From IMG/VR virus record IMGVR_UViG_3300030117_006141, positions 1-64,000 of that record: a DNA stretch of 64,000 nt. The stretch is one strand, 5' to 3'. This stretch comes from a virus. A program made the translations under genes and the position numbers. Positions 4,876 through 53,699 of this stretch are shown here, piece after piece. The stretch's first letter is position 1; each line of letters begins with the position of its first letter. Below the pieces are notes generated by a model, which saw only the letters and a program-made list of their open reading frames with translations, made no database searches and was not told where the DNA came from.

Positions 4876-4881
4876 GCTATA

Positions 4882-4900
4882 TATAAATATATATAAATAT
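4882..4900 (-). promoter_or_regulatory. Putative late promoter ATATTTAT[A/T] (tandem pair; representative of about 13 sites)
   Basis: The same motif occurs just upstream of minus-strand genes at 1302, 7078, 9527, 14760, 22052, 28442, 30208, 42370, 46276, 53448 and 53705, with a variant at 62807. Confidence 0.75.
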
Positions 4901-4912
4901 AAAAATTAATAT

Positions 4913-7073: not shown

Positions 7074-7086
7074 TATATATAAATAT

Positions 7087-9522
7087 TTATAAACTTAATA
7101 AAGCACCAGTTATTTGATTAATTGGTGCAAAAGTCCCTGTTAATTTGTATGTTTTGCCGCCATAAATGAATACTAATCCTTCGGTTGGCACTACTGCTTT
7201 CCATCCACCTATAGCTTTAATTTTATTTAGGTTATCCTTAACCTTATTTATCTTCTTTAGATCGCCCGATCCTTTAACTGCCTTAACAGCTGTTGCAACT
7301 TTTTTACGCATTGCTTGAATTGCTTTATTTGGATTTGCGGCTAAAAATCCTTCTGTGTTCTTTAATATTTCTGCGCCTAGTTCAAAAAATAGTAACTCAA
7401 ATGGCAACATATTTTTCTTTACCTGCACAGCATGATTTTCTTTGTCTATTTTTTTAGCCCATTCTAATGTTTTTTCATCTTCTATAAATTTACCATTAAT
7501 TCTAAATGACTTATCAAAGAATGCCCATCTTTTAGTTAATCCGACCAATATATTATTGTTAACCTTTGAAGGCGCTTTTTTATTTATAAAATCTTCCCAC
7601 CATGATTGATGATAAACAGCAAACTCATCACTATCCTTTAGATCAAATTCTTTCATTAATTTATTTAATTTAGATACAAAGTAATTTCTTCGTTTTCCGA
7701 AATCTTGGCTTTTTATTGTTTTTAATGGATTTGGCCCAATAATCTTAAAAGTCTTCTGCAATTGTTGATTTACTTGTTTAATCATCCCCGCTAACATTCT
7801 ACCACTATCTCTTACTGTTCCAACCGGTCTTCCATCCTTATATTTTAATGCACCATGGAATTGTAGATATGGGGCATCATATACTATTACATTAACACTA
7901 TCTGGATACATAATTTCCATATTCATCCAATTATTTCCATTATCAAATATTTTTATTTGTTGCTTGTCTGATAGTTTTCCTATAGCTTTATCTAAATCCT
8001 TGAATGCTCCTACAAATGCTTTATATAATGGACCTCTTCCTTTAAATTTAGCTGCTATATCTCTACCCGACATTCCACCTCTTTTTATATCACCTGCATT
8101 TCTAGCTGCCTTTAGGGATCCATCCCATGTGATAAATAAATTTTGTCCATCGGTTTTTTCAGTAGCAGTTTGTTCTATACTTAAATTACCTTGAAGAGAT
8201 AATTCTATCATTTTTTTGAAATCACTAAACTTTAAGTCTTTATCATCGAAAGGGTGTGCCATGTGGCCATATGCTCCACCTTCGGTTATTAATTTCCTAG
8301 CTTCCCCTGCCAACCAAGTATTTATATTTTCTTTTATATCTTTACCCCTATCATCGATTGCAGGAACCATATCAACATCCTTTCCTTTCTCCATATCCTT
8401 CTGAGACTTTTTAGTAATCTTAGTAAGTTTTTTAATCATAGATGGAGTTGGTTCTTCTTTCTTTCTTAGTCTTTCACCTTTACTATCTTTCTTAACATCT
8501 TCAGCCCCCAGGAAATTAACAAATTCCCAACCAACCGTTTTTGCTACTTTAGTTATATGCTTTTTCCATTTATTATATGCCGCGGCCCCAACTCTTCCTT
8601 CACCTTTATAATCATCCCTTACTTCAGGCTGAGCAATTCCAGTTGGTGCATATGAGACAGGGCCCACAGGACCATTTGGATATTTAGTTCCATAGGTTTC
8701 AAATTTTTTCATATCGCCTACTATATAATCAACAACTTCCCAACCCAATCTTGCCGCACCTTCTTCTGAACGTTTCTTATATCCCTTGTGACTTGTTCTC
8801 CAATATCTCGGGCCATCATCTGTTGGGAGGCCTCCCGAAGTTGTATCTGTTCTAGACACCTCTGAAATTAATTGTTTGATATCTACAGCACAACAAAATC
8901 CTTCCATCACTTCATTTAATTTTTCAAGTTTATTAATTATAAGATTGTAATTTTTCGTATGACCAAATATACCTTTGAATATTTTTTTCTTATCCGCTTG
9001 ATCTGTATCCTTATCACCTAAAGCTTTACGAATAGCTGTTCCGCTCATTTCTCCTTGACCCGGGACATTTAATTTTACGTGAGGGGCTATAATTGTATAA
9101 GCTCCATCTCTATATCCTACCTCGGCTTTTCCTTTCCATGGTCTGAAAAATCTGCCACCCAATCTTTGTGCATCCTTTTTTCCGACTGCAAATATAACCG
9201 CAGTAGTTTTTGGATCATACTTTTTTAATATTTCTTCGGCTTTATATGGATTTTTTACCTGGGCTACTTTTTGGATTCCATGAGAATTAATTATTTTTTT
9301 CTTTTCATTAAAATTAAATGGAGATTTTGGTAAATCCACCTTATTACTTGTAGCTACCCAAACCTCACCAAATTTTTTAACTAATTGTTTATATACCTGA
9401 GCATGATGTTTGCCCATAGGCTGAAATCGTCCGGGGTATATAACTACAGTTTTAGTTATATTTGCCTGTTCTGCTATAATGTTATCGGCTAACCAATTGC
9501 CCAAGTTCATAGTATTCTCCAT
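7087..9522 (-). CDS. Fusion of an N-terminal HIGH-class (cytidylyl/adenylyl-transferase-like) nucleotidyltransferase and a C-terminal ATP-dependent ligase-like domain
   Basis: N-terminal motifs YPGRFQPMGKHH and MSGTAIR. C-terminal motifs EKTDG (I), NMEI, QFHG, EGLVF (IV) and YKLTG (V). The probable start is 9510, after GGAG. Confidence 0.7.
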   Translation of the reverse strand: MENTMNLGNWLADNIIAEQANITKTVVIYPGRFQPMGKHHAQVYKQLVKKFGEVWVATSNKVDLPKSPFNFNEKKKIINSHGIQKVAQVKNPYKAEEILKKYDPKTTAVIFAVGKKDAQRLGGRFFRPWKGKAEVGYRDGAYTIIAPHVKLNVPGQGEMSGTAIRKALGDKDTDQADKKKIFKGIFGHTKNYNLIINKLEKLNEVMEGFCCAVDIKQLISEVSRTDTTSGGLPTDDGPRYWRTSHKGYKKRSEEGAARLGWEVVDYIVGDMKKFETYGTKYPNGPVGPVSYAPTGIAQPEVRDDYKGEGRVGAAAYNKWKKHITKVAKTVGWEFVNFLGAEDVKKDSKGERLRKKEEPTPSMIKKLTKITKKSQKDMEKGKDVDMVPAIDDRGKDIKENINTWLAGEARKLITEGGAYGHMAHPFDDKDLKFSDFKKMIELSLQGNLSIEQTATEKTDGQNLFITWDGSLKAARNAGDIKRGGMSGRDIAAKFKGRGPLYKAFVGAFKDLDKAIGKLSDKQQIKIFDNGNNWMNMEIMYPDSVNVIVYDAPYLQFHGALKYKDGRPVGTVRDSGRMLAGMIKQVNQQLQKTFKIIGPNPLKTIKSQDFGKRRNYFVSKLNKLMKEFDLKDSDEFAVYHQSWWEDFINKKAPSKVNNNILVGLTKRWAFFDKSFRINGKFIEDEKTLEWAKKIDKENHAVQVKKNMLPFELLFFELGAEILKNTEGFLAANPNKAIQAMRKKVATAVKAVKGSGDLKKINKVKDNLNKIKAIGGWKAVVPTEGLVFIYGGKTYKLTGTFAPINQITGALLSL

Positions 9523-14424: not shown

Positions 14425-14758
14425 TTATATTCTCCAACTTAATTTGAGCTTTTACCTCTTTTATAATAAATTCAATATCCTTAGCATGTGCTGAAAAGTT
14501 TTTTATTTCCTTAGTTTCATCATACATTTTTATTCCTCTTCTGCGCATGACTAGTCGAATTAGTCTTTTTTTCTTTTTTTTGTCAATGCTGGTAAGATCT
14601 ATATGATCACCACCATCAACAACAAGGCTTTCTACTAATACAACATCTTGCCAAGTATAATCGAATCTTCCGAATTCCTTATTATATGCATCATCACCTT
14701 TGGCTGTTCCCCAATTAAATGATGCATCTTTCCATTGTATTTTAGTCTTACTCGCCAT
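14417..14758 (-). CDS. Hypothetical virion-region protein
   Basis: 113 aa ORF directly behind the late promoter at 14760-14768. Confidence 0.55.
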   Translation of the reverse strand: MASKTKIQWKDASFNWGTAKGDDAYNKEFGRFDYTWQDVVLVESLVVDGGDHIDLTSIDKKKKKRLIRLVMRRRGIKMYDETKEIKNFSAHAKDIEFIIKEVKAQIKLENINV

Positions 14759-14795
14759 ATATAAATATCTATTAAAATACCTTTTATGTATTTTA

Positions 14796-22021: not shown

Positions 22022-22064
22022 TTAGTTTCCCTTTATCTACAATTATTCAAATATAAATATGTAG

Positions 22065-30183: not shown

Positions 30184-30277
30184 AATTTTTCCTCTTATTA
30201 TTCTACATATAAATATATACTTATAGTAAAAAGCTGTCCTTTATTATAATTATATGTTGCTCTAAATATTCTTTCAT

Positions 30278-42351: not shown

Positions 42352-42391
42352 GTTAACTCTCCATTCTAATATAAATATTTGTAACCTTAAA

Positions 42392-52601: not shown

Positions 52602-53198
52602 CTATTTTAGATCAAATATGTAAGTATGCAATTCTTCTCCTTCTCTCATAGTAGTTCTATACTCATAAGAAGTTACGCCTCTCACAGCTTCAATCATTTC
52701 TTTTGCTTTATCTAATATTGTTATCTCATTTGAAGACAAAGCTAATTTGTCATTTATAACAGTCATTTGGAGTGAACCTGTTTTAGAACCCGGGGTGTCA
52801 ACAAGATCATCGGGTAATAACGATTTGCCCTTCTCCAGTCTATCCGTATAATAATGTTTTAGTTTAATAGACAATGATTCCCACCATTTTGCAAATTCGG
52901 GTTTAGAGTTCTTAAACCATTCAGCTGCTTCATCGTCAGTCAATGCATCCCATACCTCATTAACGTCTGGTAGATTGTGTTCGAGGTGTTTGAACCAATT
53001 TATAATCCTATCATAAGCTTTCTTTTCACTAGATAACCCTGTTGTGTATATAGCATTATATGGTCTGGTAGGATCGAACGTCATCCGTTTATTTGGGTAA
53101 GACTTCTTTGGATTAATATACTCAACAAAAGTCCAATCCTTATATTTGAATTTGTTTAACATATTATCTTCCCATGTTCCGTTATTATCTGTTATCAT
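52602..53198 (-). CDS. Hypothetical protein flanked by 10-bp direct repeats
   Basis: 198 aa ORF with TTAACCTCTA at 52595-52604 and 53211-53220. Confidence 0.6.
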   Translation of the reverse strand: MITDNNGTWEDNMLNKFKYKDWTFVEYINPKKSYPNKRMTFDPTRPYNAIYTTGLSSEKKAYDRIINWFKHLEHNLPDVNEVWDALTDDEAAEWFKNSKPEFAKWWESLSIKLKHYYTDRLEKGKSLLPDDLVDTPGSKTGSLQMTVINDKLALSSNEITILDKAKEMIEAVRGVTSYEYRTTMREGEELHTYIFDLK

Positions 53199-53220
53199 AC
53201 GCAGTAAATTTTAACCTCTA

Positions 53221-53444
53221 GCCTCCGGGATTTTGACGACATGATCCCTGTTCGCCGTTGGGTCAGGGTGCCTATCAGGCAGCCATCGCCATTTCAACTT
53301 GTTCGCCAGTTGTTACGGTGACCTTCCTTATATCCTTATCATCCTGTCAAATCCGATCATCCCCATGTCGTAAATATCTTTTAGTGGAGATGGAGGGAAT
53401 CGAACCCTCGTCCAAGAATGTAGCTAATACAAGTACTAGCGGTC
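53221..53444 (-). ncRNA. ssrA: Circularly permuted (two-piece) tmRNA gene; tag (A)GEQVEMAMAA
   Basis: The acceptor piece (about 53444-53385) ends GAGGG-TTCGATT-CCCTC-CATCTCC-A. After a 20-nt spacer, the coding piece starts GGGGATG at 53364, giving a 7-bp acceptor stem with G3:U70. The tag ORF at 53307-53275 ends GCT GCC TGA TAG. The outer ends are approximate. Confidence 0.92.
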
Positions 53445-53456
53445 ATATATAAATAT

Positions 53457-53699
53457 CTACTTCTTCCTTAATAATTTAACTAGTTTGGCACATTTTTCAT
53501 ATTCCTCTGTTCCGGTAAAGTAATCTATTAAACTATTAATAGCCTCTTTACCCTCCGGATCGTCTAACATCCAATACGCTTCAGGTAGGCTGTCCCAGTC
53601 ATAACCTTTAATTATAAAGTCATATGTATTACGCATTGCTTCATCAGCCAATTCCTGATCAAGCTCATTATTCTCCATGTCTTTATAAAAGTCTTCCAT
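53457..53699 (-). CDS. Small acidic protein with C-terminal UVR (UvrB/C-like) motif
   Basis: YFTGTEEYEKCAKL. Confidence 0.65.
   Translation of the reverse strand: MEDFYKDMENNELDQELADEAMRNTYDFIIKGYDWDSLPEAYWMLDDPEGKEAINSLIDYFTGTEEYEKCAKLVKLLRKK

What the first reader, a model, noticed from the sequence alone, without database searches (positions are those of the whole stretch)
53221..53456. Miniature circularly permuted two-piece tmRNA in a probable Bacteroidota phage
Seen: on the minus strand the tRNA-like 3' half (T-arm GAGGG-TTCGATT-CCCTC, CATCTCC-A, CCA not encoded) comes before the 5' half (GGGGATG at 53364), separated by 20 nt. The halves form a 7-bp acceptor stem with the G3:U70 Ala determinant and a helix-2 pairing AGGAUG/CAUUCU. 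The tag frame after AACAACU reads GEQVEMAMAA-stop-stop. The gene is only about 225 nt, with no obvious pk1 and one downstream pseudoknot (CCCUG/CAGGG plus ACGGCG/UGUCGU). Known: permuted tmRNAs are described mainly from Alphaproteobacteria, some marine cyanobacteria, some Betaproteobacteria and some mitochondria. Bacteroidota tmRNAs are, as far as I know, one-piece with GExNYALAA-type tags. Inference: this is an independent permutation and extreme reduction in a phage, expressed from a late-type promoter, with a non-host tag that may change protease or adaptor routing.
Basis: partly seen in the sequence, partly recalled or inferred. Interest (0 to 1): 0.88.

Follow-up and report, generated by a model that had tools for sequence, protein, structure and literature searches.

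The report
Compact two-piece tmRNA gene in phage
This marine phage carries a real, back-to-front ("two-piece") gene for tmRNA, the RNA that frees stalled ribosomes. Phage two-piece tmRNAs are already known, but this one belongs to a small, little-described lineage that lacks the usual first pseudoknot and is shared with phages of Bacteroidota.

Summary
ARAGORN calls a permuted tmRNA at 53184-53476(-) with tag GEQVEMAMAA and two stops. Rfam's general permuted model RF04321 scores 62.3 bits (cut-off 47). About 35 IMG/VR contigs of related marine T4-like myoviruses carry the same gene at the same genomic place. Compensatory changes support the T-arm, a three-part helix 2, the stop-codon hairpin and one H-type pseudoknot.

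- The second pseudoknot stem is GGGAU/AUCCC, not CCCUG/CAGGG.
- The place of pk1 is taken by a newly recognised helix, GACC/GGUC, formed with the very 5' end of the acceptor piece.

The promoter motif ATATTTATAT recurs before structural genes, so late expression is plausible.

The RNA does not reach the cut-offs of the alpha, beta or cyano lineage models. It is homologous over its whole coding piece to permuted tmRNAs of crAss-like phages, which RefSeq annotates only as "tmRNA". It also shares its 5' signature with the tmRNA of the isolate Maribacter phage Panino.

An independent permutation is possible but unresolved. A Bacteroidota host for this particular phage is doubtful, because 28% of its genes have Shine-Dalgarno motifs against 0-7% in known Bacteroidota phages.

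This scan has already met the same family on other DNA. Verdict: new variant of a known kind.

The parts
53444..53457 (-). Promoter-like motif GATATTTATATATG directly upstream of the gene. Its last G is the first base of helix P2c.
   Evidence: It is conserved in the family alignment. The same ATATTTATAT motif lies on the coding strand just upstream of structural genes at 1311, 4891, 7087, 14769, 22061, 30217 and 42379. Promoter function is inferred.
53385..53444 (-). Acceptor piece, about 60 nt before CCA addition. It contains the 3' strands of helix 2, the T-arm, the acceptor 3' strand and discriminator A.
   Evidence: ARAGORN, RF04321 alignment and covariation counts. The 5' end is inferred from the promoter position and helix P2c.
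53441..53444 (-). Helix P2c, strand GACC at the 5' end of the acceptor piece. It pairs with GGUC at 53323-53320.
   Evidence: Compensatory series GACC/GGUC, GAUC/GAUC, GGUC/GACC and GAAUC/GAUUC in all 14 distinct sequence types, 4-7 bp each.
53427..53433 (-). Helix P2b, strand CUUGUAU. It pairs with AUAUAAG at 53333-53327.
   Evidence: 96% of cells are paired, and 2 pairs change on both sides (helix 2).
53415..53420 (-). Helix P2a, strand CAUUCU. It pairs with AGGAUG at 53345-53340.
   Evidence: 83% of cells are paired, and 3 pairs change on both sides (helix 3).
53393..53409 (-). T-arm, GAGGG-UUCGAUU-CCCUC.
   Evidence: 100% of cells are paired. Two pairs show GC/CG/UA swaps (helix 4).
53385..53392 (-). 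Acceptor 3' strand CAUCUCC plus discriminator A. CCA is not encoded.
   Evidence: Sequence. In crAss-like homologues the stem changes to GGGGCAU/AUGCUCC while G3:U70 is kept.
53365..53384 (-). Intervening segment of 20 nt, removed on maturation.
   Evidence: It is poorly conserved in the family. In crAss-like homologues the same position holds a tRNA gene or an endonuclease gene.
53210..53364 (-). Coding piece, about 145-155 nt. The 5' end at G1 (53364) is the inferred RNase P site. The 3' end is not defined.
   Evidence: ARAGORN. Conservation runs to about 53210. No intrinsic terminator was found here, although sister forms have one.
53358..53364 (-). Acceptor 5' strand GGGGAUG, with G3 of the G3:U70 pair.
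53320..53345 (-). 5' strands of helix 2: P2a AGGAUG, loop AUAAGG, P2b AUAUAAG, GAA, P2c GGUC.
53272..53307 (-). Tag reading frame. Resume codon GGC at 53307-53305, ten codons reading GEQVEMAMAA, then stops UGA UAG at 53277-53272.
   Evidence: ARAGORN. The frame is conserved with substitutions (GEQVELAMAA, GTQVEMAMAA, GAQVEYAMAA and others) in about 35 contigs. Sister forms keep the frame for 36-37 codons.
53270..53280 (-). Stop-codon hairpin (helix 5), GCCU-GAU-AGGC.
   Evidence: 97% of cells are paired, with CG to UA/AU swaps (helix 6).
53227..53258 (-). H-type pseudoknot. Stem ACGGC (53258-53254) pairs with GUCGU (53240-53236). Stem GGGAU (53248-53244) pairs with AUCCC (53231-53227).
   Evidence: helices 7 and 8. 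One search shows 5-bp compensatory variants of the second stem in nearly all family members and in crAss-like homologues.
53210..53226 (-). Conserved purine-rich 3' tail, GGAGG..AGAGGUUAA. Its role is unknown. It may pair weakly with the acceptor piece's 5' end as an alternative to P2c.
   Evidence: Conservation. The terminal helix is only 62% paired (helix 1). The MFE fold uses it.

Best explanation
It is a functional phage-encoded two-piece tmRNA (ssrA) gene. The proposed mechanism follows. The anatomy is shown; the processing and activity steps are inferred from established tmRNA and tRNA biology.

1. One transcript starts right after the late-type promoter motif, at about 53444.
2. The precursor folds so that the upstream 3' half and the downstream 5' half form a tRNA-Ala-like acceptor and T-arm module.
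3. Host RNase P cuts 5' of G1 (53364). A 3' tRNA-processing nuclease trims after discriminator A (53385). The CCA-adding enzyme supplies CCA. The 20-nt intervening segment is lost.
4. The result is an acceptor piece of about 60 nt and a coding piece of about 150 nt. They are held together by the acceptor stem and a three-part helix 2 (P2a, P2b, P2c).
5. Host AlaRS charges the RNA through G3:U70. Host SmpB and EF-Tu deliver it to ribosomes stalled on broken mRNAs.
6. Translation resumes at GGC and appends (A)GEQVEMAMAA. It ends at the stops in the helix-5 hairpin. The ribosome is freed and the product carries a C-terminal ..AMAA degron.

Helix P2c takes the place of pk1, and only one pseudoknot remains. 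Late expression would keep ribosome rescue running while virion proteins are made in bulk.
For: - Detection: ARAGORN permuted call with tag; RF04321 62.3 bits against a cut-off of 47.
- Conservation: about 35 syntenic copies in related marine myovirus contigs, with a conserved, substituted tag frame.
- Structure: covariation score 0.266 against 0.148 in shuffles (0 of 500 shuffles reach it), and 89.5% of cells paired against 39-48% when partners are slid.
- P2c and the second pseudoknot stem are fully compensatory.
- G3:U70 is retained while the rest of the acceptor stem changes in crAss-like homologues.
- The promoter motif is shared with seven structural-gene upstream sites.
- Homologues occur in a cultured phage and in RefSeq phages.
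- Phage two-piece tmRNAs are documented (PMC9004378).
Against: - There is no expression, processing, charging or tagging data. No RNA run holds the locus.
- No SmpB gene was found in the 79.6 kb held, which is 43% of the estimated genome, so function depends on an unidentified host's SmpB.
- pk1, usually regarded as the most important pseudoknot, is absent.
- The 3' end of the coding piece is undefined, and no terminator was found.
- The single-sequence fold is not clearly better than shuffles (z -1.74).
Confidence: 0.85

Rival explanations
1. Origin rival A. The lineage arose by its own circular permutation of a Bacteroidota-type one-piece tmRNA inside a phage. That would be a fourth permutation event. 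It then spread between unrelated Bacteroidota phages.
For: - The first 21 nt are identical or near-identical to Bacteroidales tmRNAs (GGGGAUGACUGGUUUUGACAG), including the rare UUUGAC variant and a 3-nt spacer.
- The context ..AAUUAACU GGC GAA equals that of GE-type host tmRNAs.
- All 80 listed genomic hits for the UUUGACAG signature are Bacteroidales.
- The alpha, beta and cyano models do not reach their cut-offs.
- Homologues are in crAss-like phages and in Maribacter phage Panino.
Against: - The signal rests on about 25 nt.
- The 3' half of the tRNA-like domain is identical to beta-type phage tmRNAs.
- GACAG..UUGGAC also occurs in beta-type phage tmRNAs.
- nhmmer and the tree of the tRNA-like domain do not resolve the relationship.
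- Convergence on host SmpB, AlaRS or ribosome is not excluded.
Confidence: 0.35
2. Origin rival B. The lineage is a reduced descendant of the permuted tmRNAs already circulating in aquatic phages (beta- or alpha-like). It lost pk1 and the later pseudoknots, and its tag and 5' half adapted to new hosts.
For: - It has the same acceptor stem and an identical 3' half of the tRNA-like domain as beta-type phage tmRNAs from IMG/VR.
- Beta-type members with G-initial tags (GTYNTPLALAA) give the best non-family nhmmer hit (16.6 bits).
- It has the same gene order and a short intervening segment.
Against: - The coding-piece model R1 matches beta-type RNAs only over the 5' 35-40 nt.
- Beta-type RNAs keep pk1 before the tag.
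- The 5' half differs by an indel and by the C/U in the UUCGAC motif.
- My IMG/VR pattern fixed the acceptor stem and T-loop, which inflates the apparent likeness.
Confidence: 0.4
3. It is not a rescue RNA but a decoy. In this view a tRNA-like RNA titrates host SmpB or AlaRS and blocks host trans-translation, as proposed for the tRNA-like-domain-only RNA of mycobacteriophage DS6A.
For: Such a form exists (PMC4131195, PMC11915505). No SmpB gene is seen in the phage DNA held.
Against: - The tag frame, resume context, in-loop stop codons and downstream pseudoknot are all conserved under substitution. A decoy would not need them.
- Sister forms keep 36-37 in-frame codons.
Confidence: 0.05
4. It is a dead remnant, either a fragment of a host tmRNA picked up by imprecise excision or an attachment-site scar.
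For: tmRNA genes are common integration sites, and fragments occur in prophages (PMC9004378).
Against: - Both halves are complete.
- It has its own promoter motif.
- It is syntenic across a clade whose proteins have diverged to 27-99% identity.
- It shows compensatory base changes.
- Sampled Bacteroidota hosts have only one-piece genes: 144 of 151 over the cut-off, and 0 of 151 permuted.
Confidence: 0.02

Closest known systems
Permuted tmRNAs of crAss-like phages (Suoliviridae: cr114_1, cr125_1, cr115_1, cr52_1, cr60_1, cr56_1, cr10_1), annotated in RefSeq as 'transfer-messenger RNA, SsrA'
   Same: - Permuted gene order.
- GG(A/U)UUUGAC(A/U)G 5' signature and a three-part helix 2 (in cr114_1 the outermost pairing is GUCAAU/AUUGAC).
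- No pk1.
- ..AUAACU GGC resume codon giving a Gly-initial tag.
- Stop codon in a hairpin.
- The same pseudoknot, ACGGC..GUCGU.AAAA.., followed by GGAG.
- The model built from the marine family hits their whole coding pieces at 19-38 bits.
   Different: - Longer tags (GNFYVTDYTRIAA and similar).
- A different acceptor stem (GGGGCAU).
- Long intervening segments that hold a tRNA gene or an endonuclease gene.
- A T-arm/acceptor minihelix at the 3' end of the coding piece.
- They belong to gut podovirus-like phages unrelated to this myovirus.
tmRNA of Maribacter phage Panino (PP540027, 27557-27889), a cultured phage of a flavobacterium
   Same: ARAGORN calls it permuted, and RF04321 gives 62.2 bits. 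It shares GGAUUUGACAG, GUUUGGAC, UUUAACU..GGU resume and a Gly-initial tag.
   Different: - Only the first ~55 nt of its coding piece, up to the resume context, match model R1 (20.5 bits).
- It has a 16-residue tag ending QFA.
- It lies in a tRNA cluster of a podovirus.
- Its paper mentions only 'one tmRNA gene', not the permutation (PMC11590407).
Two-piece tmRNAs of aquatic myophages (OM43 phage Melnitz, pelagimyophages, cyanophages; PMC9004378) and beta- or cyano-type permuted tmRNAs on IMG/VR contigs
   Same: They are phage-borne, permuted, and come from marine T4-like phages. The beta-type IMG/VR copies share the same acceptor stem and 3' half of the tRNA-like domain.
   Different: Those reach the lineage-specific cut-offs (beta_tmRNA 89-173 bits, cyano 134 bits), keep pk1 and are 30-100 nt longer. 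This RNA reaches none of those cut-offs. The Melnitz tmRNA is alpha-like and has a glutamine riboswitch.
One-piece tmRNAs of Bacteroidota, especially Bacteroidales (tags GE[NYES]NYALAA)
   Same: The 5' 21 nt, the UAACU GGC GAA resume context and the GE start of the tag. The AMAA tag end is seen in other Bacteroidota.
   Different: Hosts are one-piece, 350-400 nt, with pk1-pk4. No permuted gene over the cut-off was found in 151 sampled genomes.

Membership tests
tmRNA (ssrA), permuted / two-piece form | tRNA-like domain: 7-bp acceptor stem, T-arm with a GUUCGAnUC-type loop, and a D-loop analogue | tested here: met
   ARAGORN, RF04321 62.3 bits over the cut-off of 47, T-arm covariation.
tmRNA (ssrA), permuted / two-piece form | G3:U70 alanine identity pair and discriminator A | tested here: met
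   Sequence. It is retained in crAss-like homologues whose stems otherwise differ. Charging itself was not tested.
tmRNA (ssrA), permuted / two-piece form | Gene order: the 3' (acceptor) half lies upstream of the 5' (coding) half, with an intervening segment between them | tested here: met
   The intervening segment is 20 nt.
tmRNA (ssrA), permuted / two-piece form | Short tag reading frame with a resume codon, a C-terminal ..AA degron and an in-frame stop | tested here: met
   GEQVEMAMAA followed by two stops. It is conserved with substitutions in the family.
tmRNA (ssrA), permuted / two-piece form | Pseudoknot pk1 between helix 2 and the resume codon | tested here: not met
   Only 12-16 unpaired nt lie between P2c and GGC, and no covarying pk1 was found. 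[quoted passage not shown]
tmRNA (ssrA), permuted / two-piece form | Works with SmpB; alanylation and trans-translation activity | not testable with these tools
   No SmpB gene in the 79.6 kb held. A host SmpB is presumed.
alpha_tmRNA / beta_tmRNA / cyano_tmRNA (RF01849, RF01850, RF01851) | Reaches the curated cut-off of the lineage-specific covariance model | tested here: not met
   No such hit appears at the gathering threshold. In the E-value mode they scored below the 39.7-bit partial RF00023 hit and were suppressed. Family members L017, L023-25, L047, L079 and L102 behave likewise, whereas beta- and cyano-type contigs pass.
Compact two-piece tmRNA of Bacteroidota-associated phages (crAss-like, Panino; not a named family in the literature I could search) | UUUGAC 5' signature, three-part helix 2 closed by the acceptor piece's 5' end, no pk1, Gly resume codon after UAACU, and a single pseudoknot of the ACGGC/GUCGU type | tested here: met

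The most novel reading that the evidence does not exclude
The family could be a fourth, independent circular permutation of tmRNA. On this reading it was born from a Bacteroidota-type one-piece tmRNA inside a phage and passed horizontally between unrelated phage groups (Crassvirales, a flavobacterial podovirus, marine T4-like myoviruses). It would be a natural minimal tmRNA of about 210 nt, in which pk1 is replaced by an intermolecular helix and the acceptor piece needs no 5' processing.
Probability: 0.3. Interest if true: 0.7.

Novelty: new variant of a known kind. Interest (0 to 1): 0.5.

Why it matters
tmRNA is a textbook RNA whose first pseudoknot is nearly universal. This is a widespread natural lineage of about 210 nt in two pieces, with pk1 replaced by a simple helix and only one pseudoknot left. 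It offers a compact natural test case for what trans-translation really needs.

The family also links gut crAss-like phages, a cultured flavobacterial phage and abundant marine myoviruses through one mobile RNA gene. Lineage-specific Rfam models miss it, and GenBank labels it without noting the permutation.

The probable late-promoter control suggests that phages secure ribosome rescue during virion production.

Tried and rejected
- **blastn against GenBank phages.** The locus gave nothing at E<=1e-5 and only T-arm matches at E<=10.
- **Closest cultured relatives by TerL and portal.** Flavobacterium phage immuto has no tmRNA. Microcystis phage Mel-JY01 has only a 15.9-bit sub-threshold hit that neither ARAGORN nor model R1 confirms.
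- **nhmmer profiles of the two pieces.** They did not separate host-type from beta-type affinity, and they missed the crAss homology that the covariance model found.
- **ML tree of the concatenated tRNA-like domain.** It is comb-like and unresolved.
- **Search for pk1 by covariation.** It found only a weak UAGCUG/UGGCUG candidate made of nearly invariant columns, which I rejected.
- **Terminal helix ACCGCU/AGAGGU** between the two outer ends. Only 62% of cells pair. I keep it as a possible alternative conformer only.
- **Bacteroidota -7 box TAnnTTTG.** It is not enriched in the window: 75 found against 89 expected. I rejected it in favour of the phage late motif.
- **Sequencing runs.** No RNA holder is listed. 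The DNA holders are marine metagenomes. Read laying was not used because contigs cannot show RNA ends.
- **Paper PMC516066** (third two-piece lineage) is not held.
- **Supplement of PMC11915505.** It holds only phylum counts, not tags.
- **Not tested:** the lead to Chryseobacterium phage MA9V from an earlier finding.

Full report
**1. Is it there?**

Yes. On the minus strand the layout is as follows:
- T-arm GAGGG-UUCGAUU-CCCUC, 53409-53393.
- Acceptor 3' strand CAUCUCC, 53392-53386, with discriminator A at 53385.
- A 20-nt intervening segment, 53384-53365.
- GGGGAUG, 53364-53358.

The stem has seven pairs including G3:U70. CCA is not encoded.

ARAGORN calls a permuted tmRNA at 53184-53476 with tag GEQVEMAMAA and two stops. 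It is the only tRNA-like gene in the window. Rfam's general permuted model RF04321 scores 62.3 bits against a cut-off of 47.

**2. The surroundings**

- The window is the first 64 kb of a 79.6-kb IMG/VR viral record that CheckV rates 43% complete.
- GC content is 33%, and all genes are on the minus strand.
- It encodes portal, large terminase and baseplate wedge proteins of a T4-like myovirus, plus Hsp20 and MoxR/CobT-like genes.
- The closest cultured phages by TerL and portal are Microcystis phage Mel-JY01 (51-59%) and Flavobacterium phage immuto (48-57%). Neither has this tmRNA.
- The locus occurs in marine metagenomes from at least two studies. No RNA run is listed.
- No SmpB gene was found in the 79.6 kb. 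One tRNA-Ala lies beyond the window.

**3. A conserved family**

A pattern for the permuted tRNA-like domain found 103 IMG/VR contigs. ARAGORN calls a permuted tmRNA in 92 of them. About 35 carry tags of the form G[EAT]QV[EY][MLY]AMAA in genes of 293-297 nt.

These contigs share the neighbouring genes with the window at 27-99% protein identity. The RNA is therefore an old, syntenic feature of a clade of marine myoviruses.

Sister forms in the same clade (L023, L024, L025, L102) keep the same resume codon and frame but encode 36-37-residue tags ending (A/L)MAA. They end in an intrinsic terminator. ARAGORN miscalls their tags.

**4. Structure by covariation**

On a 24-sequence alignment (A1) my hand-drawn structure behaves as follows:
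- 89.5% of cells pair, against 39-48% when the partners are slid.
- The covariation score is 0.266 against 0.148 in shuffles, and 0 of 500 shuffles reach it.

Supported helices:
- The T-arm.
- P2a, CAUUCU/AGGAUG.
- P2b, CUUGUAU/AUAUAAG.
- The stop-codon hairpin, GCCU/AGGC.
- An H-type pseudoknot after the tag, ACGGC/GUCGU plus GGGAU/AUCCC.

The GGGAU/AUCCC stem is compensatory nearly everywhere: GAAG/CUUC, GGGC/GCCC, GGGAC/GUCCC, GAGGU/ACCUC, AGCU/AGCU and others.

The acceptor stem is invariant in this set because my search pattern fixed it. In crAss-like homologues it becomes GGGGCAU/AUGCUCC with G3:U70 kept.

No pk1 was found. Instead, the first bases of the acceptor piece (GACC, 53444-53441) pair with GGUC (53323-53320) directly after P2b. 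All 14 distinct sequence types show compensatory versions: GACC/GGUC, GAUC/GAUC, GGUC/GACC and GAAUC/GAUUC.

Helix 2 is therefore a three-part stalk closed by the 5' end of the acceptor piece. Twelve to sixteen unpaired bases lead from it to the resume codon.

A pairing between the two outer ends is weak (62% paired). The single-sequence fold is unremarkable (z -1.74).

**5. Expression signal**

The 14 bases before the gene, GATATTTATATATG, are conserved in the family. The core ATATTTATAT recurs on the coding strand immediately upstream of the terminase, a portal-adjacent gene, tail-fibre and baseplate genes, and others. The sites are at 1311, 4891, 7087, 14769, 22061, 30217 and 42379.

The motif is not T4's TATAAATA. 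The Bacteroidota -7 box TAnnTTTG is not enriched.

The motif abuts helix P2c. The acceptor piece's 5' end is therefore probably the primary transcript end.

**6. Relation to known tmRNAs**

Two-piece tmRNAs in aquatic phages are published. There were 53 in a 2021 phage database, including Melnitz, pelagimyophages and cyanophages (PMC9004378). RF04321 was built in 2025 from alpha, beta and cyano sequences (PMC11915505).

The present RNA and its family reach only RF04321. They do not reach the lineage models. Other IMG/VR permuted tmRNAs with the same acceptor stem score 89-173 bits on beta_tmRNA or 134 bits on cyano_tmRNA.

A weak blastn hit led to crAss-like phage cr114_1. RefSeq labels its gene simply 'tmRNA', but it is permuted: ARAGORN calls it as such with tag GNFYVTDYTRIAA, and RF04321 gives 50.9 bits. 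A tRNA-His sits in its intervening segment. At least a dozen Suoliviridae genomes carry homologues. In cr56_1 an endonuclease gene lies between the halves.

A covariance model of the marine coding piece (R1) gave these results:
- It matches all seven crAss loci over their full ~147 nt, at 19-38 bits and E from 2e-9 to 5e-4.
- It matches Bacteroidota host tmRNAs and beta- or cyano-type phage tmRNAs only over the first 32-40 nt, at 8-18 bits.

An earlier finding of this scan pointed me to the cultured Maribacter phage Panino. I confirmed there a permuted tmRNA with the same 5' signature and resume context: RF04321 62.2 bits, and R1 20.5 bits over the first ~55 nt of the coding piece, up to the resume context. 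Its paper mentions only 'one tmRNA gene' (PMC11590407).

I found no paper describing this lineage.

**7. Origin**

Bacteroidota themselves have one-piece genes. In a sample of 151 genomes, 144 passed the standard-model cut-off and none passed the permuted one. The database counts are 24,380 standard against 48 permuted.

Points for a Bacteroidota-type ancestry:
- The family's first 21 nt equal those of Bacteroidales tmRNAs, including the unusual UUUGAC.
- The context ..AAUUAACU GGC GAA equals that of GE-type host tmRNAs.
- All 80 listed genomic hits to the signature were Bacteroidales. That scan was truncated.

Points against:
- The 3' half of the tRNA-like domain is identical to beta-type phage tmRNAs.
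- GACAG..UUGGAC occurs there too.
- Profile searches and a tree do not resolve the question.

An independent permutation is therefore possible, at about one in three, but it is not shown.

**8. Host**

The tmRNA family points to Bacteroidota phages, but this phage is atypical. GGAG or GAGG lies 5-17 nt before 19 of 68 long ORFs (28%), against 1 of 68 in a control window. The comparison values are:
- immuto, 0 of 59.
- Panino, 1 of 63.
- cr114_1, 4 of 60.
- Bacteroidales genome loci, at background level.
- The GEQVELAMAA sub-family contigs, 0 of 141.

The window's sub-lineage may infect hosts whose ribosomes use Shine-Dalgarno pairing. I rate a Bacteroidota host at roughly even odds.

**9. The tag**

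The GE start and the AMAA end both occur in Bacteroidota host tags, for example GENNYALAA and ANDYSYAMAA. 'Non-host tag' is therefore not supported.

The conserved ends, with a free interior of 10 to 37 residues, suggest that the resume context and the C-terminal degron are what matter.

**10. Verdict**

This is a real and probably functional two-piece tmRNA. It is a member of a compact, pk1-less lineage that is widespread in marine myoviruses and shared with crAss-like and flavobacterial phages.

The kind is known. The lineage and its architecture appear undescribed in the papers I could search. This scan has already reported the same family from other genomes.

Noticed in passing
window-wide (G000), e.g. 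upstream of starts at 1275, 22021, 30183, 42351: Shine-Dalgarno motifs (GGAG/GAGG) peak sharply 11-12 nt before start codons in 28% of long ORFs. Phages known or presumed to infect Bacteroidota show 0-7%, and a sister sub-family of the same phage clade shows 0 of 141. This hints at a host shift within the clade.
   Followed up: partly
1298-1311, 4878-4901, 7074-7087, 14756-14769, 22048-22061, 30204-30217, 42366-42379 (minus strand): A recurring ATATTTATAT motif sits directly upstream of structural genes. It is a candidate late promoter consensus for this phage clade and differs from T4's TATAAATA.
   Followed up: partly
L023:1717-1941, L024:1930-2154, L025:5892-6100, L102:11805-12028: Sister tmRNAs in related contigs encode 36-37-residue tags in frame from the same GGC resume codon. 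ARAGORN miscalls them as VKARW.., AMAA and others. An intrinsic terminator follows the pseudoknot.
   Followed up: partly
L119:540-982 (cr114_1), L292:401-1207 (cr56_1), L291 (cr60_1): In crAss-like phages the intervening segment of the permuted tmRNA holds a tRNA-His gene (cr114_1) or an annotated endonuclease gene (cr56_1, cr113_1). In several of them the coding piece ends in a T-arm/acceptor minihelix that looks like a 3' processing signal.
   Followed up: partly
L119:117-284: A RAGATH-9 RNA (153.7 bits) lies about 250 nt upstream of the crAss cr114_1 tmRNA gene.
   Followed up: no
G000:C1:67231-67305 (beyond the window): The phage's only tRNA gene in the DNA held is tRNA-Ala(UGC), in a phage whose tmRNA tag is Ala-rich.
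   Followed up: no
53210-53226 (minus strand): A conserved purine-rich tail, GGAGG..AGAGGUUAA, follows the pseudoknot. It contains two Shine-Dalgarno-like motifs, and crAss homologues also have GGAG here. Its role is unknown.
   Followed up: no
L009 (LR756508.1 92434-92880): A 484-kb uncultured phage whose terminase is 46% identical to this phage's carries a standard one-piece tmRNA (72 bits, tag GRRKPLSW by ARAGORN).
   Followed up: no
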